IMG/VR virus record: IMGVR_UViG_2734482566_000010
DNA length: 4,277 nt
DNA from: a virus
Taxonomy: Duplodnaviria; Heunggongvirae; Uroviricota; Caudoviricetes
Strand: one strand, 5' to 3'
The translations under genes were made by a program, and so were the position numbers. Below the pieces are notes generated by a model. It saw nothing but the letters and a program-made list of their open reading frames with translations. It ran no database searches and was not told the DNA's origin. Of this stretch, positions 352 to 4,277 are shown piece after piece (within the stretch, counting starts at the first letter, position 1; each line of letters opens with the position of its first letter).

Positions 352-609
352 TTGAACAACCAGACAATGACTTTTACCCCTGAACAATTGCGTAAACACG
401 CGCAGGAAATGCTGCGTCATGCTGAACAACTCGAAAAAACGGGCATAACAAAAGACGCTATCCGTAAAGATATGGTACCCGCGCTTCGGGAACTGATGCA
501 GGCGAAGCATCGCGCACAGAAAGCAGTAGATGAGCTGGTGGACTGTGTGGCAGAGCTGGAAACCAGAGTCGGAAAGTTTGAAAAACTGGTGCAGGAGGTG
601 CTGCGCTGA
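352..609 (+). CDS. hypothetical phage protein (85 aa, helical/coiled-coil-like, no Cys motif)
   Basis: ORF with TTG start at 352 preceded by GGAG at 340-343 (alternative ATG at 367). Stop TGA 607-609 overlaps the rusA ATG at 609-611, indicating translational coupling. No family recognised. Confidence 0.6.
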   Translation: MNNQTMTFTPEQLRKHAQEMLRHAEQLEKTGITKDAIRKDMVPALRELMQAKHRAQKAVDELVDCVAELETRVGKFEKLVQEVLR

Positions 610-983
610 TGCGCCATGAGTTTATTTTACCTTATCCGCCGACGGTGAATACTTACTGGCGACGTCGTGACAACACATATTTTGTATCAAAAGCCGGTGA
701 GCGTTATCGCCGGGATGTGGCGCTTATTGTCCGTCAGCAGCGACTGAAATTAAGCCTGTCCGGAAGACTGGCGATAAAGATTATTGCAGAGCCACCGGAT
801 AAGCGCCGTCGTGACCTGGACAATATCCTGAAAGCACCACTGGATGCACTGACACATGCGGGAGTGTTAATGGACGATGAGCAGTTTGATGAAATCAATA
901 TCGTTCGTGGTCAGCCAGTATCTGGTGGACGTCTGGGGGTGAAGATTTACCCCATAATGCATGAAGAGCAGGTCAAAAAATGA
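609..983 (+). CDS. rusA: RusA-family crossover junction endodeoxyribonuclease (Holliday junction resolvase), 124 aa
   Basis: Strong AGGAGG at 593-598, 10 nt before the ATG. Protein shows the RusA signature LPYPP..N.Y, VS..G..YR, PD.RRRDLDN (catalytic Asp pair), DAL..AG...DD.Q and GGRL, collinear with E. coli RusA as I recall it. Confidence 0.9.
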   Translation: MRHEFILPYPPTVNTYWRRRDNTYFVSKAGERYRRDVALIVRQQRLKLSLSGRLAIKIIAEPPDKRRRDLDNILKAPLDALTHAGVLMDDEQFDEINIVRGQPVSGGRLGVKIYPIMHEEQVKK

Positions 984-1801
984 AACTGGAAGATTTACCG
1001 AAATACTACTCCCCAAAATCCCCTTGCCTGACCGATGCATCGGCCTCAACGTCAAAAGATGCGCTGAGTATCACTGATGTGATGGCCGCGCAGGGCATGA
1101 CACAGAATCGGGCTGAGATGGGGTTTTCTGCGTTCCTGGGGAAAATGGGCATCAGTATGAATGACAGGGCGCGGGCAACAGAATTACTGGCAGATTATGC
1201 ACTCAGTCGGTGCGATCGTGTGGCGGCGTTGAGAAAACTTCCGGCAGAAATAAAACCGGTAGTGATGCGCATTATGGCTTCGTACGCTTTTGAGGATTAT
1301 GCCCGCAGCGCAGCGAGTAAAAAGCAGTGCCCTTGTTGCTATGGGGAAAAATTTATTGAAAGCGTAGTTTTTACAAACAAGGTCCAGTATCCGGATGGTA
1401 AGCCGCCGGTATGGGCAAAGTGTACGAAAGGTGTGTATCCGTCTTACTGGGAAGAATGGAAAAAAGTCAGGGAGGTGGTAAAAGTTGCCTGTCCGGAGTG
1501 TGGCGGAAAGGGTGAGGTTTCCACCGCCTGTAAGGATTGCCGTGGGCGTGGTGTCGCCATTCATCGTGAAGAGTCGGTAAAACGTGGTATGCCTGTTATC
1601 AGAGACTGCCAGCGTTGTGGTGGTCGTGGCTATGAAAGACTACCATCAACGGAGGCATTTAATGCTATATGCGAGGTGACAAACCAGATAACACGCGCGT
1701 CATGGGAAAAAACAGTTAAGAAATTTTATGATGCGCTGGTGACCCGGTTTGATATTGAAGAAGCATGGGCTGAGCGGCAGTTAAAAAAGGTAACTAGGTA
1801 A
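980..1801 (+). CDS. Q: Late-gene antitermination protein Q (lambda Q family), 273 aa, with expanded Cys-rich central module
   Basis: ATGA overlap with the rusA stop. N-terminus (..SPKSP....TDVMAA.GM....FGK...S.ND...) and C-terminus (CxDCxGxG...CxRCxGxGY.R.P.....W..TVK..YDALV......V.R) align with lambda Q as I recall it. Followed immediately by a PR'-like promoter. Confidence 0.85.
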   Translation: MKLEDLPKYYSPKSPCLTDASASTSKDALSITDVMAAQGMTQNRAEMGFSAFLGKMGISMNDRARATELLADYALSRCDRVAALRKLPAEIKPVVMRIMASYAFEDYARSAASKKQCPCCYGEKFIESVVFTNKVQYPDGKPPVWAKCTKGVYPSYWEEWKKVREVVKVACPECGGKGEVSTACKDCRGRGVAIHREESVKRGMPVIRDCQRCGGRGYERLPSTEAFNAICEVTNQITRASWEKTVKKFYDALVTRFDIEEAWAERQLKKVTR

Positions 1802-1806
1802 CAAGG

Positions 1807-1846
1807 TTGATTTTTCCGGAATCTGTGGTAAATTCGTTATAACGAT
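1807..1846 (+). promoter_or_regulatory. Late promoter PR' with Q-utilisation pause element (-35 TTGATT 1807-1812, -10 TAAATT 1829-1834, AACGAT 1841-1846)
   Basis: 16-bp spacer. The -10 hexamer and the downstream ACGATGGG with 7-nt spacing are identical to lambda PR' and its sigma70-dependent pause site as I recall them. Sits directly after Q. Confidence 0.75.
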
Positions 1847-1881
1847 GGGCGTTTTATGCCTGACGTTAGAAGAGTTTCTAC

Positions 1882-1905
1882 AACCCGCCGCCGAGCGGGT
1901 TTTTT
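1882..1905 (+). terminator. Intrinsic terminator (tR'-like) ending a short PR' leader transcript of about 65 nt
   Basis: Stem AACCCGC (1882-1888) / GCGGGTT (1895-1901), loop CGCCGA, T-run 1900-1905. Confidence 0.7.
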
Positions 1906-2025
1906 ATGACTGAAATCGCGTCAGTACAGTAAACGCGCTGGTGGCGGTGAATACCTGTCTTTCAGCTTGCTGGCTTTTTCGACAAGAGTTATTGGTGTGT
2001 CACGTTAACCGGAAAAGGAAAAGAC

Positions 2026-2223
2026 ATGCTAAAACAGCAGGATATGACAGAAACCGCCAGAGTGGTGTTTAATGAATTAAGCGTTACCGAACCGGCGACA
2101 GTCGGGGAGATAGCGCAGAATACTTACCTTTCACGCGAACGCTGCCAGTTAATACTGACCCAGCTGGTTATGGCGGGTCTGGCAGACTATCAGTTCGGTT
2201 GTTACAGACGCCTTCCGCAGTGA
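2026..2223 (+). CDS. small hypothetical protein (65 aa), putative helix-turn-helix DNA-binding protein
   Basis: ATG 2026 preceded by AAGGA at 2015-2019 (6-nt spacer). Segment ATVGEIAQNTYLSRERCQLILTQLVMAGL resembles an HTH/winged-helix recognition unit. Stop codon lies inside a terminator hairpin. Confidence 0.5.
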   Translation: MLKQQDMTETARVVFNELSVTEPATVGEIAQNTYLSRERCQLILTQLVMAGLADYQFGCYRRLPQ

Positions 2224-2233
2224 AGGCTTTTTT
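2210..2233 (+). terminator. Intrinsic terminator overlapping the stop codon of the 65-aa ORF
   Basis: Perfect 6-bp stem GCCTTC (2210-2215) / GAAGGC (2222-2227), loop CGCAGT, followed by TTTTTT at 2228-2233. Confidence 0.7.
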
Positions 2234-2250
2234 ATTTGTGGTAAATGGGC

Positions 2251-2281
2251 GGCTGGTGGGTGTTAGGGGCACCCACCAGCC
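2251..2281. repeat. 12-bp perfect inverted repeat (GGCTGGTGGGTG / CACCCACCAGCC) with 7-nt spacer
   Basis: Arms 2251-2262 and 2270-2281 are exact reverse complements. No U-tract follows on either strand, so it is not an intrinsic terminator. Confidence 0.6.
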
Positions 2282-2393
2282 ATCTGCTCATGCGTTGGGT
2301 TCACAAGCAAACCTCAGGCCCACTGCTTTGCGCAAAAGCAGAATGAGCCTATCAGAGACAGGCTTAATGATCCATGCTTAATACTGTAAAAAT

Positions 2394-2683
2394 NNNNNNN
2401 NNNNNNNNNNNNNNNNNNNNNNNNNNNNNNNNNNNNNNNNNNNNNNNNNNNNNNNNNNNNNNNNNNNNNNNNNNNNNNNNNNNNNNNNNNNNNNNNNNNN
2501 NNNNNNNNNNNNNNNNNNNNNNNNNNNNNNNNNNNNNNNNNNNNNNNNNNNNNNNNNNNNNNNNNNNNNNNNNNNNNNNNNNNNNNNNNNNNNNNNNNNN
2601 NNNNNNNNNNNNNNNNNNNNNNNNNNNNNNNNNNNNNNNNNNNNNNNNNNNNNNNNNNNNNNNNNNNNNNNNNNNNNNNNNNN
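2394..2683. other. Run of 290 N (assembly gap or masked sequence)
   Basis: Directly visible. Nothing inside can be annotated; ORF-track segments translated as X are artefacts. Confidence 1.
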
Positions 2684-3475
2684 GAAATCATGATGCGTGA
2701 ACGCTTCAGTGTGCTGAACCATATTATCTGGGCGAAGCCGTCCGGACGCTGGAACGGATGCAACAAGGAAAGCCTGCGGGCGTATTTCCCCGCCACAGAG
2801 CGCATTCTGTTCGCGGAACATTATCAGGGGCCGTATCGTCCGAAAGATGCCGGGTATGCGGCGAAGGGCAGTGCACTGAAACAGCATGTGATGGCCCCGC
2901 TGATTTCTTACTTTCGTGATGCGCGAGCTGCCCTGGGGATAACGGCAAAACAGATTGCAGATGCCACAGGAAAGAAAAACATGGTGTCGCACTGGTTCAG
3001 TGCCGGTCAGTGGCAGTTGCCGAATGAAAGCGATTATCTGAAATTACAGGCGCTGTTTGCCCGGGTGGCAGAAGAGAAGCATCGGCGTGGTGAACTGGAA
3101 AAGCTCCACCACCAGCTGGTGGATACGTATACCTCACTGAACCGGCAGTATGCGGAGCTGCTGAGTGAATATAAACATCTGCGGCGGTATTTTGGCGTGA
3201 CGGTGCAGGTGCCGTATACCGATGTGTGGACGCATAAACCGGTGCAGTTCTATCCCGGGAAACATCCGTGCGAAAAACCGGCAGAAATGCTGCAGCAGAT
3301 AATCAGCGCTAGCAGTCGTCCGGGTGACCTGATTGCAGATTTTTTCATGGGGTTGGGTTCGACAGTGAAAGCGGCACTGGCGCTCGGGCGTCGTGCAATT
3401 GGCGTTGAGCTGGAGACTGAACGTTTTGAGCAGACGGTTCGGGAAGTACAGGATTTAGTCAGCCAGAACGGATGA
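2684..3475 (+). CDS. DNA methyltransferase, beta-class N6-adenine/N4-cytosine type (N6_N4_Mtase-like), 5' end lost in the N-run
   Basis: C-terminal HPCEKPAEMLQQIISASSRPGDLIADFFMGLGSTVKAALALGRRAIGVELE matches the HP.xKP...GD.V.DPF.GSGTT...LGR..IG.E SAM-binding block (motif X + motif I) of beta-class MTases. N-terminal visible part has the IIWAKP motif. No DPPY-type catalytic motif in the visible 261 aa, so it must lie upstream in the gap. Frame is open from the first non-N base. Confidence 0.8.
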   Translation, partial: EIMMRERFSVLNHIIWAKPSGRWNGCNKESLRAYFPATERILFAEHYQGPYRPKDAGYAAKGSALKQHVMAPLISYFRDARAALGITAKQIADATGKKNMVSHWFSAGQWQLPNESDYLKLQALFARVAEEKHRRGELEKLHHQLVDTYTSLNRQYAELLSEYKHLRRYFGVTVQVPYTDVWTHKPVQFYPGKHPCEKPAEMLQQIISASSRPGDLIADFFMGLGSTVKAALALGRRAIGVELETERFEQTVREVQDLVSQNG

Positions 3476-3477
3476 TA

Positions 3478-3506
3478 TTGAAGAATTAATTACGCGTCGT
3501 TATTAT
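3478..3506 (+). promoter_or_regulatory. Putative sigma70 promoter for the tRNA array (-35 TTGAAG 3478-3483, -10 TATTAT 3501-3506)
   Basis: 17-bp spacer; -10 lies about 10 nt upstream of the first tRNA 5' end. Confidence 0.5.
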
Positions 3507-3515
3507 GCGGCTCCC

Positions 3516-3591
3516 GGCCCTTTAGCTCAGTGGTGAGAGCGAGCGACTCATAATCGCCAGGTCGCTGGTTCAAATCCAGCAAGGGCCACCA
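3516..3591 (+). tRNA. tRNA-Ile2 (anticodon CAU, ileX/ileZ-like; formally CAU could also be Met)
   Basis: Hand-folded cloverleaf: 7-bp acceptor GGCCCTT/AAGGGCC, D-arm GCTC..GAGC, anticodon loop CTCATAA (CAT at 3549-3551), T-arm GCTGG-TTCAAAT-CCAGC, encoded CCA. Close to E. coli ileX as I recall it. Confidence 0.85.
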
Positions 3592-3598
3592 TCACATA

Positions 3599-3675
3599 CC
3601 GCCATTAGCTCATCAGGAAAGAGCGCCAGCCTTCGAAGCTGGCTGCGCGGGGTTCAAGTCCCCGATGGCGGTCCA
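3599..3675 (+). tRNA. tRNA-Arg (anticodon UCG)
   Basis: Acceptor CCGCCAT/ATGGCGG (7 perfect bp), U8, D-arm GCTC..GAGC, anticodon stem CCAGC/GCTGG with loop CTTCGAA (TCG at 3633-3635), T-arm CGGGG-TTCAAGT-CCCCG, encoded CCA. Confidence 0.8.
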
Positions 3676-3688
3676 TTATCTGCATCAT

Positions 3689-3746
3689 GCGTTGTTAGCT
3701 CAGCCGGACAGAGCAATTGCCTTCTAAGCAATCGGTCACTGGTTCG
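3689..3746 (+). tRNA. tRNA-Arg (anticodon UCU, argU/argO-like), 3'-truncated after GGTTCG of the T-loop; probable pseudo-tRNA
   Basis: Acceptor 5' strand GCGTTGT, D-arm and anticodon arm ATTGC-CTTCTAA-GCAAT are intact (TCT at 3723-3725) and homologous to argU up to GGTTCG. No complementary T-stem 3' strand, no ACAACGC acceptor 3' strand and no CCA downstream. Confidence 0.6.
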
Positions 3747-3766
3747 CTTTTGCGGGCCTTTTTTTT
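3741..3766 (+). terminator. Intrinsic terminator built on the remnant T-arm of the truncated tRNA
   Basis: Stem GGTTCGC (3741-3747) / GCGGGCC (3752-3758), 7 bp with two G-U pairs, loop TTTT, then an 8-T run at 3759-3766. Confidence 0.6.
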
Positions 3767-3963
3767 AAATGTCTCACAATTCAGACGGTTGACAGTTGTC
3801 TGTTTTGCGGGGAGTTTGTTAAAAGAAACTGGCATGGTGAATCCCCCTGTGCGGAGGGGCAATCAGCGAGTAGGTATATGGGATAATCGCGGATTCAGGT
3901 GCTGGTACTGAATTCACCGGGAGGCACCCGGCATCATGCAATGGCACATAGCGCCACTCTCCA

Positions 3964-3986
3964 GCCCTCTCCGGAGGGGCTTTTCT
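3964..3986 (+). terminator. Putative intrinsic terminator ending a possible small RNA
   Basis: GC-rich palindrome CCCTCTCCGGAGGGG followed by CTTTTCTG. Confidence 0.45.
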
Positions 3987-4170
3987 GTGCCGGATACATC
4001 ACAGTTTCTGGAACCTTAGGTACTACAGTATCAGTCAGGGTGCTATATTTTCAGATGTGATGAAAGCCTGTCAGCAGGCAGGGCGTATCGGAAATGACCC
4101 AGTAGAGAAAACGTTGACTCAGATACCGGTGCTGAGTTACCGGGAAACCGGCATCACATGACCGCTATCC

Positions 4171-4277
4171 TGAGGTGTACTGGCAATAGCGGACACTACC
4201 ATTTGTTCTTTTTTTAAGCAGCCATCTGATGATATTTTTCCCTGAAGGCTGCCGGGGAGATATTCCCCAGACGAGAG
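4171..4277 (-). mobile_element. IS3-family insertion sequence, right end (IRR), continuing beyond the window
   Basis: Terminal sequence TGAGGTGTACTGGCAATAGCGGACAC has the TG...CA terminus and the GCAATAG.GGACAC core resembling IS3 inverted repeats. A transposase C-terminus is encoded just inside it on the minus strand. Confidence 0.7.
4214..4277 (-). CDS. IS3-family transposase (OrfB) C-terminal fragment, partial at window edge
   Basis: Minus-strand frame reads ...SRLGNISPAAFREKYHQMAA then stop (4214-4216). The LG..SP..F motif is typical of IS3-family DDE transposase C-termini. Stop lies 43 bp inside the IR terminus. Confidence 0.65.
   Translation of the reverse strand, partial: SRLGNISPAAFREKYHQMAA

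What the first reader, a model, noticed from the sequence alone, without database searches (positions are those of the whole stretch)
3767..4170. About 400 bp of ORF-free, hairpin-rich DNA with a terminator: candidate small RNA or att-arm remnant
No ORF of 60 aa or more on either strand. The region contains a perfect 5-bp stem at 3844-3859 (CCCCT...AGGGG), a CCGGG/CCCGG hairpin at about 3918-3932, long-range complementarity between GGTGAAT (3836-3842) and ATTCACC (3913-3919), and a terminator-like hairpin at 3964-3986. It sits between a tRNA breakpoint and an IS end, where a structured sRNA or integrase-binding arm DNA could lie. I do not recognise the sequence. The TTGACA at 3789-3794 has no convincing -10.
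Basis: seen in the sequence. Interest (0 to 1): 0.45.

Follow-up and report, generated by a model that had tools for sequence, protein, structure and literature searches.

The report
Known prophage small RNA gene (STnc100)
The hairpin-rich, gene-free stretch is a copy of STnc100, an already catalogued small RNA carried by lambda-like prophages of E. coli and its relatives, followed by a second, divergent copy cut short by an insertion sequence; it is ordinary, although nobody yet knows what this RNA family does.

Summary
Window 3803-3992 (+) matches Rfam RF02076 (STnc100) over the full model at 123.6 bits (gathering 47, E 8e-28). It lies in a lambdoid prophage late region: rusA, Q-like antiterminator, DNA methylase, a phage tRNA cluster, then this RNA. 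This is the 'moron' slot where EHEC and EPEC studies found the Hfq-bound sRNAs EcOnc27/sRNA103 and PasD.

They are helices P2 and P4 and the terminator of a five-helix core (3832-3939). Covariation in 88 distinct related units from many Enterobacterales genera supports the core, and so does a covarying loop-loop pseudoknot (3862-3868 with 3900-3906).

The rest of the region (4055-4159) is a second, sequence-divergent unit with the same architecture. An IS600 end at 4171 removed its terminator.

The 'tRNA breakpoint' is a 39-bp internal deletion in the phage's own tRNA-Arg gene, not an att site, and no integrase is linked.

About half of complete E. coli genomes carry close copies of unit 1.

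Verdict: already known; sRNA reading supported, att-arm reading rejected. The mode of action is unproven. The elaborate conserved fold hints at more than simple seed pairing.

The parts
3689..3746 (+). Truncated phage tRNA-Arg (argO-like) pseudogene. 39 bp are missing (T-arm 3' half, acceptor 3' strand and spacer); the junction lies within GGTTCG 3741-3746.
   Evidence: Alignment to the intact tRNA-Arg of E. coli ATCC 11775 (L001 5000-5076) shows a 39-bp gap. ARAGORN does not call it. The Rfam tRNA score is only 22.5 bits, against 70.1 bits for the intact copy.
3741..3766 (+). Intrinsic terminator closing the tRNA cluster (7-bp stem GGTTCGC/GCGGGCC plus T8). It insulates the sRNA gene from upstream transcription in a lysogen.
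   Evidence: Terminator scan. Folding gives -11.3 kcal/mol, z -4.2, 0/200 shuffles as good.
3773..3801 (+). Conserved upstream box CTCACAATTCAG-N4-TTGACAGTTGTCTG.
   Evidence: The same box precedes STnc100 unit 3 of the intact prophage (L001 5593-5621). TTGTCT lies 18 nt upstream of the -10-like element. This reading is an inference.
3817..3825 (+). Extended -10-like element TGtTAAAAG, 6 nt upstream of the first base of helix P1. This is the probable promoter, with a start near 3831-3833.
   Evidence: PasD1's RNA-seq 5' end is the first base of the equivalent helix, with TTGACT-18-TAAAAA-7 upstream (PMC8550237 Table S6; L002 2761). A TAnnnT hexamer lies 4-9 nt upstream of P1 in 24/45 units, against 3-10/45 in control windows. 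This copy's hexamer lacks the final T, so the promoter is inferred, not shown.
3803..3992 (+). STnc100 (RF02076) match, full model 1-206.
   Evidence: cmscan gives 123.6 bits, gathering score 47, E 8.3e-28.
3832..3939 (+). Structured core, a five-helix junction. P1 3832-3839/3932-3939 (G3837-U3934 wobble). P2 3843-3847/3853-3858. P2a 3859-3860/3889-3890. P3 3891-3898/3908-3915. P4 3917-3921/3927-3931.
   Evidence: The core folds alone into this architecture. RNAalifold on 46 units supports it. In 88 distinct units, 97.6% of cells pair against 83.1% when shuffled, 18 of 24 pairs show compensatory changes, and slid controls pair at 37-52%.
3862..3906 (+). Loop-loop pseudoknot: AUCAGCG (3862-3868, just after P2) pairs with UGCUGGU (3900-3906, loop of P3).
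   Evidence: Within-unit complementarity score is 15.2, against 10.6 (sd 0.29, maximum 11.5) in 1000 permutations across 84 units with 72 distinct 5' strands (first seen).
3940..3962 (+). Variable single-stranded linker between the core and the terminator. It is the candidate target-pairing (seed) region.
   Evidence: It is the least conserved part of the Rfam alignment. In PasD1 the proposed seed UGUGAG and the RIL-seq chimera ends lie in the equivalent segment (PMC8550237 Fig. S5 and Table S3). This is an inference for the window copy.
3963..3988 (+). Rho-independent terminator of unit 1. It is weakened by a 1-nt deletion (CCCC to CCC) in the 5' arm.
   Evidence: Terminator scan. Folding gives -12.2 kcal/mol (z -1.35), against -19.3 (z -3.8) for the intact ATCC 11775 copy.
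4041..4049 (+). Extended -10-like TGcTATATT, 5-6 nt upstream of unit 2.
   Evidence: Read from the sequence. A second class of E. coli homologues (92.6% identity) shares only window 4035-4170, which suggests the module starts here.
4055..4159 (+). Second, sequence-divergent STnc100-like core. P1' 4055-4062/4152-4159. P2' 4066-4070/4075-4079. P3' 4117-4122/4132-4137. P4' 4140-4143/4148-4151. Pseudoknot about 4086-4091 with 4126-4131.
   Evidence: It folds alone into the family architecture at -37.4 kcal/mol, z -3.5, 0/200 shuffles. Rfam gives 21.8 bits here and 30.1 bits (E 6e-4) for the intact copy. My core-only model, built without it, finds it at 25.4 bits, E 5e-4. BLAST finds no similarity to unit 1. 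The pseudoknot is kept.
4171..4277 (-). End of an IS600 (IS3 family) copy, with the transposase reading on the minus strand. It replaces the linker, the terminator of unit 2 and everything downstream.
   Evidence: 100% identity to annotated IS600 in thousands of E. coli records. The intact prophage continues with ...TCCAGGCCCATCCGCTCCGGTGGGCCTTTTT, the terminator of unit 2.

Best explanation
The region holds two tandem genes of the STnc100 family of prophage small RNAs. They sit in the late-region 'moron' slot of a lambdoid prophage: Q-like antiterminator, methylase, phage tRNA cluster, then the sRNAs, then normally the lysis genes.

Unit 1 is complete. A weak extended -10 promoter (TGtTAAAAG, 3817-3825) would start transcription at about 3832. 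The RNA of roughly 155 nt has three parts:
- a 108-nt five-helix, pseudoknotted core (3832-3939);
- a 23-nt variable single-stranded linker (3940-3962);
- a Rho-independent terminator (3963-3988), weakened here by a 1-nt deletion.

Unit 2 (core 4055-4159) has the same architecture with an unrelated sequence. It lost its terminator to an IS600 insertion at 4171.

By analogy with its studied relatives (EcOnc27/sRNA103 in Stx2 phages, PasD in EPEC), unit 1 most likely acts in the lysogen as an Hfq-associated, trans-acting regulatory RNA. Its variable linker would pair with host or island mRNAs, and the conserved core would serve as a stable 5' scaffold. During lytic growth it would simply be read through as part of the Q-antiterminated late transcript.

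Shown here: family membership, structure, context and the lesions. Taken from the literature on homologues: transcription and Hfq binding. Inferred: the promoter, the seed position and the mode of action. My confidence in the base-pairing mechanism alone is about 0.5.
For: - Family membership: Rfam full-length hit at 123.6 bits.
- Context: the window is colinear at 94-98% with an intact prophage annotated rusA / antitermination protein / DNA methyltransferase / tRNA-Ile, -Arg, -Arg / ... holin, lysozyme. That prophage carries three STnc100 units in tandem (136, 30 and 161 bits).
- Structure: covariation in P1, P2, P2a and P3, with 18 of 24 pairs compensatory. The pseudoknot covaries. The core folds into the family architecture on its own.
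- Independent transcription unit: an intrinsic terminator lies upstream, -10-like hexamers are enriched just 5' of P1, and unit 1 has its own terminator.
- Spread: close copies of unit 1 occur in 2,635 of 5,426 complete E. coli genomes, up to 11 per genome.
- Literature on homologues: EDL933 has 11 STnc100 copies that are transcribed, one of them Northern-positive (PMC5331693). EcOnc27/sRNA103, downstream of stx2B, overlaps STnc100 and is Hfq-bound (PMC4104026, PMC12711010, PMC7873438). PasD shares ancestry with STnc100 and gives Hfq RIL-seq chimeras (PMC8550237; bioRxiv 10.64898/2026.05.13.724894).
- The STnc_100 qPCR primers of PMC12370729 both match the window exactly (3834-3853 and the reverse complement of 3907-3926), and that assay detected the RNA in STEC vesicle preparations.
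Against: - No expression data exist for this particular copy.
- Its -10 (TAAAAG) lacks the conserved final T, and the consensus scan finds no sigma-70 promoter on this strand.
- Its terminator is weakened and has only four U before a C.
- No target of any STnc100 member has been validated. The family's function is listed as unknown (PMC9029176), and the reported sRNA103 effects on fimZ/espA have no established mechanism (PMC7873438).
- A five-helix junction with a covarying kissing-loop pseudoknot, conserved across genera, is more elaborate than typical Hfq seed-pairing sRNAs. PasD abundance barely changes in a hfq deletion mutant (log2 fold change +0.55 and -0.18; PMC8550237 Table S2).
- The full-length single-sequence minimum-energy fold is not the family fold, because P2 and the terminator can pair with each other.
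Confidence: 0.8

Rival explanations
1. The conserved core is itself the functional part. It would be a folded RNA module that binds a protein or small ligand, or acts as a decoy or sponge, rather than a passive scaffold for a seed-pairing sRNA. The tandem units would then be repeated binding modules.
For: - The core is a compact five-helix junction with almost no unpaired junction bases and a covarying loop-loop pseudoknot.
- The strings GGUGAAUCCCCC and CACCGGGAGGCACCCGGCACC are near-invariant from Escherichia to Pantoea, Erwinia and Rahnella. These units were selected with the second string, so that part is biased.
- Arrays of 4-6 cores occur in multi-kb ORF-poor islands, some only 5-17 nt apart with no room for separate promoters or terminators.
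- PasD levels are nearly Hfq-independent.
Against: - Unit 2 and PasD keep the helices but not the 'invariant' loop and junction sequences, and PasD lacks P4 altogether. That fits a scaffold better than a specific binding pocket.
- Hfq CRAC and RIL-seq data exist for homologues.
- No partner protein gene is consistently linked.
Confidence: 0.2
2. It is a cis-acting element of the prophage late operon or of the downstream gene. It could be a leader, a riboswitch-like attenuator or a processing signal, and it would appear as an 'sRNA' only because it terminates prematurely.
For: - The unit lies inside the Q-dependent late transcript, directly after the tRNAs, and the same tRNA-then-STnc100 order recurs in Salmonella diarizonae and a Pantoea plasmid.
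- P2 and the terminator are mutually complementary, so alternative folds are possible.
- One subgroup sits about 190 nt upstream of a KdgM-family porin gene with no obvious terminator between them.
- In phages, relatives often precede the nanS-p esterase gene (bioRxiv 10.64898/2026.05.13.724894).
Against: - Downstream genes are heterogeneous: methylase, GNAT, Ivy, lysozyme, porin, or nothing.
- Most units have their own -10-like element and terminator.
- Units occur in ORF-free arrays.
- A convergent anti-sRNA gene usually separates the unit from the next ORF (PMC4104026; L001 5830-5918).
Confidence: 0.1
3. It is att-arm or integrase-binding DNA left at a tRNA integration site.
For: It lies adjacent to a truncated tRNA gene and to an IS end.
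Against: - The tRNA belongs to a three-gene phage tRNA cluster in the middle of the late region. The intact version, followed by the same block, is present in 235 E. coli genomes.
- The truncation is an internal 39-bp deletion, not a phage/host junction.
- There is no integrase in the window or within 5 kb in the intact prophage.
- The compensatory base changes are an RNA-level signature.
Confidence: 0.01
4. The two copies in this window are decaying relics without activity. The family is real, but these copies would be pseudogenes in a degraded prophage.
For: - The terminator of unit 1 carries a 1-nt deletion, giving -12.2 against -19.3 kcal/mol.
- Unit 2 has lost its terminator to IS600.
- The neighbouring tRNA-Arg is deleted.
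- The lysis genes are replaced by an IS.
- No complete E. coli genome shares this junction.
Against: - The core of unit 1 is intact. Its only core change is G-C to G-U in P1, which keeps the pair.
- The promoter-like region is conserved.
- A bulged 6-bp GC stem plus a U-tract may still terminate transcription.
Confidence: 0.15

Closest known systems
STnc100 (Rfam RF02076, 'Gammaproteobacterial sRNA STnc100'), first listed from Salmonella Hfq-bound RNA sequencing
   Same: Full-length covariance-model match at 123.6 bits. It has the same helices, the same terminator sequence type (GCCCCUCUCCGGAGGGGC) and the same prophage context.
   Different: Nothing essential differs. This copy has a G-U in P1 and a 1-nt deletion in the terminator stem. 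The first ~30 model positions probably cover promoter DNA rather than RNA, judging from PasD's mapped 5' end.
EcOnc27 / sRNA103 (EHEC O157:H7 Stx2 phage, about 75 nt downstream of stx2B)
   Same: It overlaps an STnc100 copy in the same moron slot between PR' and the lysis genes. It is Hfq-bound and Northern-positive (PMC4104026, PMC12711010, PMC7873438).
   Different: There it follows the stx2AB insertion, whereas here it follows the tRNA genes directly with no toxin genes. It is a different sequence variant. I did not align it directly.
PasD1/PasD2 (EPEC E2348/69 prophage sRNAs)
   Same: It has the same P1 (GCAUGGUG), P2, pseudoknot and P3, and the same position after the Q gene. My core model finds it at 29.9 bits. 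A common ancestor with STnc100 has been proposed (bioRxiv 10.64898/2026.05.13.724894).
   Different: PasD lacks hairpin P4, has a different linker (seed UGUGAG) and terminator, and is below Rfam's gathering score. BLAST similarity to the window is limited to the first 40 nt.
AsxR / AgvB anti-sRNAs (convergent partners in the same prophage slot)
   Same: Same locus type. In intact prophages the last STnc100 unit faces a convergent short sRNA gene (L001 about 5830-5918, minus strand).
   Different: They are unrelated 51-60-nt RNAs on the opposite strand that sponge FnrS or GcvB. Their position in this window has been replaced by IS600.
IsrK / StxS (short PR'-tR' transcripts of lambdoid prophages)
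   Same: They are prophage late-region sRNAs near the Q gene. A candidate of that type lies at window about 1802-1900.
   Different: Different position (immediately after Q) and a different structure, and they are made from PR' itself. They are not related to the region under study.

Membership tests
STnc100 (RF02076) | Covariance-model score at or above the curated gathering score (47 bits), over the full model | tested here: met
   123.6 bits, model 1-206/206, E 8.3e-28 at 3803-3992. Unit 2 scores only 21.8 bits (truncated) or 30.1 bits (intact copy in L001). By this criterion it is below threshold and not a formal member.
STnc100 (RF02076) | Closing helix enclosing hairpins P2, P3 and P4, with pairs maintained by compensatory change | tested here: met
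   The window core folds into it. In 88 distinct units, 97.6% of cells are paired, 284 cells show double changes against 64 when shuffled, and 18 of 24 pairs are compensatory. The alignment was fitted to the model; the MAFFT-based RNAalifold run gives the same helices.
STnc100 (RF02076) | Rho-independent terminator 3' of the core | tested here: met
   Hairpin at 3963-3981 plus UUUUCUGU. It is weakened by a 1-nt deletion, -12.2 against -19.3 kcal/mol.
STnc100 (RF02076) | Location in the late region of a lambdoid prophage, between Q/PR' and the lysis genes | tested here: met
   Window ORFs and tRNAs. Colinearity with an annotated prophage of ATCC 11775.
STnc100 (RF02076) | Transcribed as a discrete small RNA and bound by Hfq | not testable with these tools
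   Literature on homologues only: PMC5331693 (RNA-seq, Northern), PMC4104026 (Hfq CRAC), PMC8550237 (RIL-seq for PasD), PMC12370729 (RT-qPCR with primers identical to the window sequence).
Phage attachment-site arm (attL/attR) at a tRNA gene | Junction between host tRNA 3' end and phage DNA, with an adjacent integrase and arm-type binding sites | tested here: not met
   The tRNA is one of three phage-borne tRNAs. Its truncation is an internal 39-bp deletion. There is no integrase in the window or in the 10.5-kb homologous locus.
Riboswitch / cis-regulatory leader | Consistent association with one downstream gene family in the same orientation | tested here: not met
   Downstream ORFs of ten units are KdgM porin (2), DNA methylase, GNAT, Ivy, phage lysozyme, DUF4055, a weak RcnB match, and none (2). 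Many units have no downstream ORF within 450 nt. No other Rfam family matches the region.
IS600 (IS3 family), flank only | Terminal sequence identical to annotated IS600 copies | tested here: met
   Positions 4171-4277 are 100% identical over 107 nt to records annotated 'IS3-like element IS600 family transposase'.

The most novel reading that the evidence does not exclude
The STnc100 core may not be just the body of a seed-pairing sRNA. It may be an autonomous, tightly folded RNA module: a five-helix junction locked by a covarying kissing-loop pseudoknot.

It is conserved from Escherichia to Pantoea, Erwinia and Rahnella. It often follows phage or plasmid tRNA genes. It is amplified into arrays within ORF-free islands.

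Such a module could bind a specific protein or ligand, or act as a decoy, so the family's real function would still be undiscovered. The texts I read used methods that cannot predict pseudoknots, and I found no mention of this one.
Probability: 0.25. Interest if true: 0.6.

Novelty: already known. Interest (0 to 1): 0.2.

Why it matters
For this window it matters little. The block is a routine copy of one of the most frequently annotated enterobacterial sRNA families, present in about half of complete E. coli genomes.

It is useful for annotation. RefSeq labels the same DNA 'hypothetical protein' or leaves it blank.

It also shows that the 400-bp 'empty' region holds two sRNA units, and that IS600 and two small deletions have damaged this prophage's late region.

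More broadly, STnc100 has no established function even though it sits next to Shiga-toxin genes and has been linked statistically to clinical outcome (PMC12711010). The covarying pseudoknot and the arrays seen here suggest that the family deserves structural and biochemical study.

Tried and rejected
- **Sigma-70 promoter scan of 3480-4277.** It found nothing on the plus strand. The promoter proposal therefore rests on comparison with PasD and on -10 enrichment, not on a consensus match.
- **Full-length single-sequence fold of unit 1.** It gave a non-family structure (z -0.7), because P2 pairs with the terminator. It is uninformative on its own, and I did not build a switch model on it.
- **Search for the source genome.** No complete E. 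coli genome has the unit 2-IS600 junction, so the organism stays unidentified. It could be E. coli or Shigella; IS600 is common in both, which is my own background knowledge.
- **Cis-leader or riboswitch idea.** Rejected as a general explanation because the downstream genes are heterogeneous. The KdgM-porin subgroup was left open.
- **BLAST between unit 1 and unit 2.** No similarity was found. Their relationship rests on the two covariance models and the shared architecture only, so convergence cannot be excluded.
- **Coding reading.** I considered the overlapping ORFs (64 aa plus strand, 55 aa minus strand, 53 aa 3899-4060) and RefSeq's pseudo-CDS. I rejected them because variation is compensatory in helices and the ORFs run through terminators.
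- **My first pseudoknot script.** It mis-assigned P3 in a few units (L041, L077, L083, L120). I repeated the test with model-defined boundaries.
- **Not done.** I did not align EcOnc27 or Salmonella LT2 copies directly, and I did not attempt target prediction because no genome is available.
Full report
**1. What the window is**

The ORFs and tRNAs lay out the late region of a lambdoid prophage:
- a RusA-type resolvase ORF (609-983);
- a 273-aa Q-like antiterminator ORF (980-1801);
- a small ORF (2026-2223);
- a DNA methylase, partly masked by N (2690-3475);
- tRNA(CAT) at 3516-3591 and tRNA-Arg(TCG) at 3599-3675.

The same order is annotated in E. coli ATCC 11775 (locus L001): RusA family endonuclease, antitermination protein, DNA methyltransferase, tRNA-Ile, tRNA-Arg, tRNA-Arg, then about 1 kb without genes, then holin, lysozyme and the other lysis genes. 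The window is colinear with that locus from 606 to 4171 at 94-98% identity.

**2. Checking the observation**

Three small corrections apply:
- The perfect 5-bp stem is at 3844-3848/3855-3859.
- The CCGGG/CCCGG hairpin is at 3917-3921/3927-3931.

The terminator-like hairpin is found by the scan at 3963-3981, followed by TTTTCTGT.

The ORF statement needs a caveat. A mechanical 64-aa TTG ORF (3717-3911) and a 55-aa minus-strand ORF (3695-3862) overlap the region.

The features are not chance. A covariance-model scan of the whole window against Rfam gives a full-length match to RF02076, STnc100, at 3803-3992 on the plus strand. It scores 123.6 bits against a gathering score of 47, with E 8e-28.

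**3. Anatomy of unit 1**

The 108-nt core (3832-3939) folds on its own into the family architecture:

| Element | Coordinates |
|---|---|
| P1 (closing helix) | 3832-3839 / 3932-3939 |
| P2a (short helix) | 3859-3860 / 3889-3890 |
| P3 | 3891-3898 / 3908-3915 |

To test this fold I scanned one genome per species for the P4 string. I recovered 45 further units that also carry the 5' box GGTGAA[TC]CC, from Kosakonia, Enterobacter, Klebsiella, Raoultella, Salmonella diarizonae, Atlantibacter, Pantoea, Erwinia, Rahnella and others. RNAalifold on their MAFFT alignment recovers P1, P2, P2a, P3 and P4, with compensatory changes in 10 of 24 pairs.

A covariance model built from these cores found 89 units in 63 loci. 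On that alignment:
- 97.6% of cells pair, against 83.1% after shuffling.
- 284 cells carry double changes, against 64 after shuffling.
- 18 of 24 pairs are compensatory.
- Sliding the partners by 1-3 columns drops pairing to 37-52%.

The alignment is fitted to the model, so these numbers lean towards the structure. The independent MAFFT result agrees.

GGUG belongs to P1, and AUUC belongs to the 3' arm of P3.

**4. A pseudoknot**

The bases just after P2 (AUCAGCG, 3862-3868) are complementary to the loop of P3 (UGCUGGU, 3900-3906). The same relation holds unit by unit with quite different sequences, for example:
- ACUGGAUA / UAUCCAGU
- AGGCUAC / GUAGCCU
- UUUGAUC / GAUCAAA
- AAAGUCAU / GUGACUUU

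Across 84 distinct units with 72 different 5' strands, the within-unit complementarity score averages 15.2. In 1000 permutations of partners it averages 10.6 (sd 0.29, maximum 11.5) (first seen). PasD1 and unit 2 keep the pseudoknot too.

The core is therefore a compact five-helix junction locked by a loop-loop contact. I saw no mention of this in the papers I read; the recent comparative preprint used RNAalifold, which cannot predict pseudoknots.

**5. Transcription signals**

An intrinsic terminator directly upstream (3741-3766; -11.3 kcal/mol, z -4.2) closes the tRNA cluster. In a lysogen the RNA therefore needs its own promoter.

An overlapping TTGTCT (3796-3801) lies 18 nt from an extended -10-like TGtTAAAAG (3817-3825), which ends 6 nt before P1. 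This geometry matches PasD1, whose RNA-seq 5' end is the first base of the equivalent helix and which has TTGACT-18-TAAAAA-7 upstream (PMC8550237 Table S6).

Across genera, a TAnnnT hexamer lies 4-9 nt upstream of P1 in 24 of 45 units, against 3-10 of 45 in control windows. The first ~30 positions of the Rfam model are thus probably promoter DNA.

The window's -10 lacks the final T, and the consensus scan does not call a promoter. This step is inference.

Compared with ATCC 11775, the terminator of unit 1 has lost one C. That weakens it from -19.3 to -12.2 kcal/mol. The only change in the core is G-C to G-U in P1, which keeps the pair.

**6. The rest of the region is a second unit**

The intact prophage has three tandem STnc100 matches at 136, 30 and 161 bits, each with its own terminator.

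The middle, divergent unit corresponds to window 4055-4159. BLAST finds no similarity to unit 1, yet it has the same architecture:
- P1': ATGTGATG / CATCACAT
- P2': GCCTG-tcag-CAGGC
- P3': ACTCAG / CTGAGT
- P4': CCGG-gaaa-CCGG
- a pseudoknot

It folds alone into that architecture at -37.4 kcal/mol, z -3.5. My core model, built without it, detects it at 25.4 bits, E 5e-4. An extended -10-like TGcTATATT (4041-4049) precedes it.

Its linker and terminator (…AGGCCCATCCGCTCCGGTGGGCCTTTTT in L001) are missing. An IS600 end starts at 4171, 100% identical to annotated IS600. No complete E. coli genome has this junction.

**7. The 'tRNA breakpoint'**

The third phage tRNA (tRNA-Arg, argO-like) has lost 39 bp between the imperfect repeats GGTTCG and GGCTCG. 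The terminator that follows it is kept. This is a small deletion inside the prophage, not an attachment site.

No integrase is present in the window or in the 10.5-kb homologous locus. The att-arm reading is rejected.

**8. What is known about the family**

- STnc100 is among the most often annotated sRNAs in bacterial genomes, with no assigned function (PMC9029176).
- EDL933 has 11 copies. Most are transcribed, and one was confirmed by Northern blot (PMC5331693).
- In Stx2 phages a copy lies about 75 nt downstream of stx2B. It overlaps the Hfq-bound sRNA EcOnc27, also called sRNA103. Overexpression of sRNA103 raised fimZ and espA transcripts by an unknown route (PMC4104026, PMC7873438, PMC12711010).
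- Tree et al. describe this slot, between PR' with its 'moron' genes and the lysis genes, as carrying convergent sRNA pairs in at least eight Sakai prophages (PMC4104026).
- PasD1/PasD2 of EPEC are abundant and give Hfq RIL-seq chimeras through a seed in the segment between core and terminator. They were recently proposed to share an ancestor with STnc100 (PMC8550237; bioRxiv 10.64898/2026.05.13.724894).
- The STnc_100 RT-qPCR primers of PMC12370729 match the window exactly.
- Close copies of unit 1 occur in 2,635 of 5,426 complete E. coli genomes, up to 11 per genome. Unit 2 occurs in 673.
- Rfam's own model reaches its gathering score on units from Salmonella diarizonae, K. pneumoniae, Kosakonia, Pantoea, Erwinia and Superficieibacter.

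**9. How it most likely works**

The best-supported reading is an independently transcribed prophage sRNA of about 155 nt. The conserved core would give a stable, base-paired 5' end. The variable linker (3940-3962) would pair with targets with the help of Hfq, and the terminator would supply the 3' end. During lytic growth, Q-modified polymerase would read through it.

Membership, structure, context and the lesions are shown here. Expression and Hfq binding come from homologues. The promoter, the seed position and the mode of action are inferred.

Three observations leave room for a different core function:
- the elaborate fold;
- the near Hfq-independence of PasD levels;
- arrays of cores only 5-17 nt apart in ORF-free islands of a Pantoea megaplasmid and other genomes.

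Against a sequence-specific binding pocket, unit 2 and PasD keep the helices but not the conserved loop sequences.

A general cis-leader role is unlikely because the downstream genes are heterogeneous. One subgroup does sit upstream of KdgM-family porin genes.

**10. Verdict**

The sRNA interpretation is right and the att-arm interpretation is wrong. The element is an already known family, so interest for the scan is low. The remaining interest is the unexplained, strongly structured core of a very common but functionally uncharacterised RNA.

Noticed in passing
window 1802-1900: Directly after the Q-like antiterminator gene there is a promoter-like TTGATT (1807-1812) with TGgTAAATT (1826-1834). 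A strong hairpin plus T-run follows (ACCCGCCGCCGAGCGGGTTTTTT, about 1873-1896). Rfam hits are weak: isrK 18.9 bits, Trp_leader 21.8 bits. It looks like the short PR'-tR' leader transcript, which is the position of StxS and IsrK in other prophages.
   Followed up: no
window 3689-3746: The third phage tRNA (tRNA-Arg, argO-like) has a 39-bp internal deletion between GGTTCG/GGCTCG repeats and is no longer recognised as a tRNA. The terminator after the cluster survives.
   Followed up: yes
window 4171-4277: An IS600 (IS3 family) end is inserted into the sRNA array and replaces the downstream units and the lysis genes. No complete E. coli genome in the collection shares this junction.
   Followed up: partly
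window 2394-2683: A run of N masks the 5' part of the DNA methylase gene, so that ORF cannot be read in full.
   Followed up: no
window 2250-2314 (minus strand): A GC-rich perfect hairpin, GGCTGGTGGGTG...CACCCACCAGCC, follows the 65-aa ORF. It gives a weak P26 Rfam hit (24.2 bits, below threshold) and is probably just a terminator.
   Followed up: no
L001 5152-5342, 5381-5554, 5620-5829 and minus strand about 5830-5918: The intact E. coli prophage has three tandem STnc100-type units. A convergent short hairpin-terminated gene follows on the other strand, in the position of an AsxR/AgvB-type anti-sRNA (weak OmrA-B hit). RefSeq annotates none of them as RNA.
   Followed up: partly
L066 about 2700-6700, L090 about 900-2000, L086 about 6300-8000, L053: Multi-kb stretches without ORFs of 100 aa or more hold 4-6 STnc100-like cores each. 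They lie on a Pantoea megaplasmid and in Superficieibacter and Enterobacter chromosomes. Some cores are only 5-17 nt apart, so they are probably co-transcribed.
   Followed up: partly
L028 809-941, and L055, L065, L073, L076, L091, L104: A subgroup of cores in Kosakonia, Enterobacter and Klebsiella indica lies about 190 nt upstream of a KdgM-family porin gene on the same strand, with no obvious terminator between them. It may be a leader in that context.
   Followed up: partly
L015 5491-5933; L066 4374-4648: The order 'tRNA gene(s) then STnc100 unit' seen in the window recurs in Salmonella enterica subsp. diarizonae and on the Pantoea plasmid.
   Followed up: no
window 3843-3860 and 3964-3980: P2 (CCCCCUGUGCGGAGGGGC) and the terminator (GCCCUCUCCGGAGGGGC) are near-repeats that can pair with each other. 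The full-length minimum-energy fold uses this alternative. Whether it has any switching role is unknown. Terminators in other genera do not resemble P2.
   Followed up: partly
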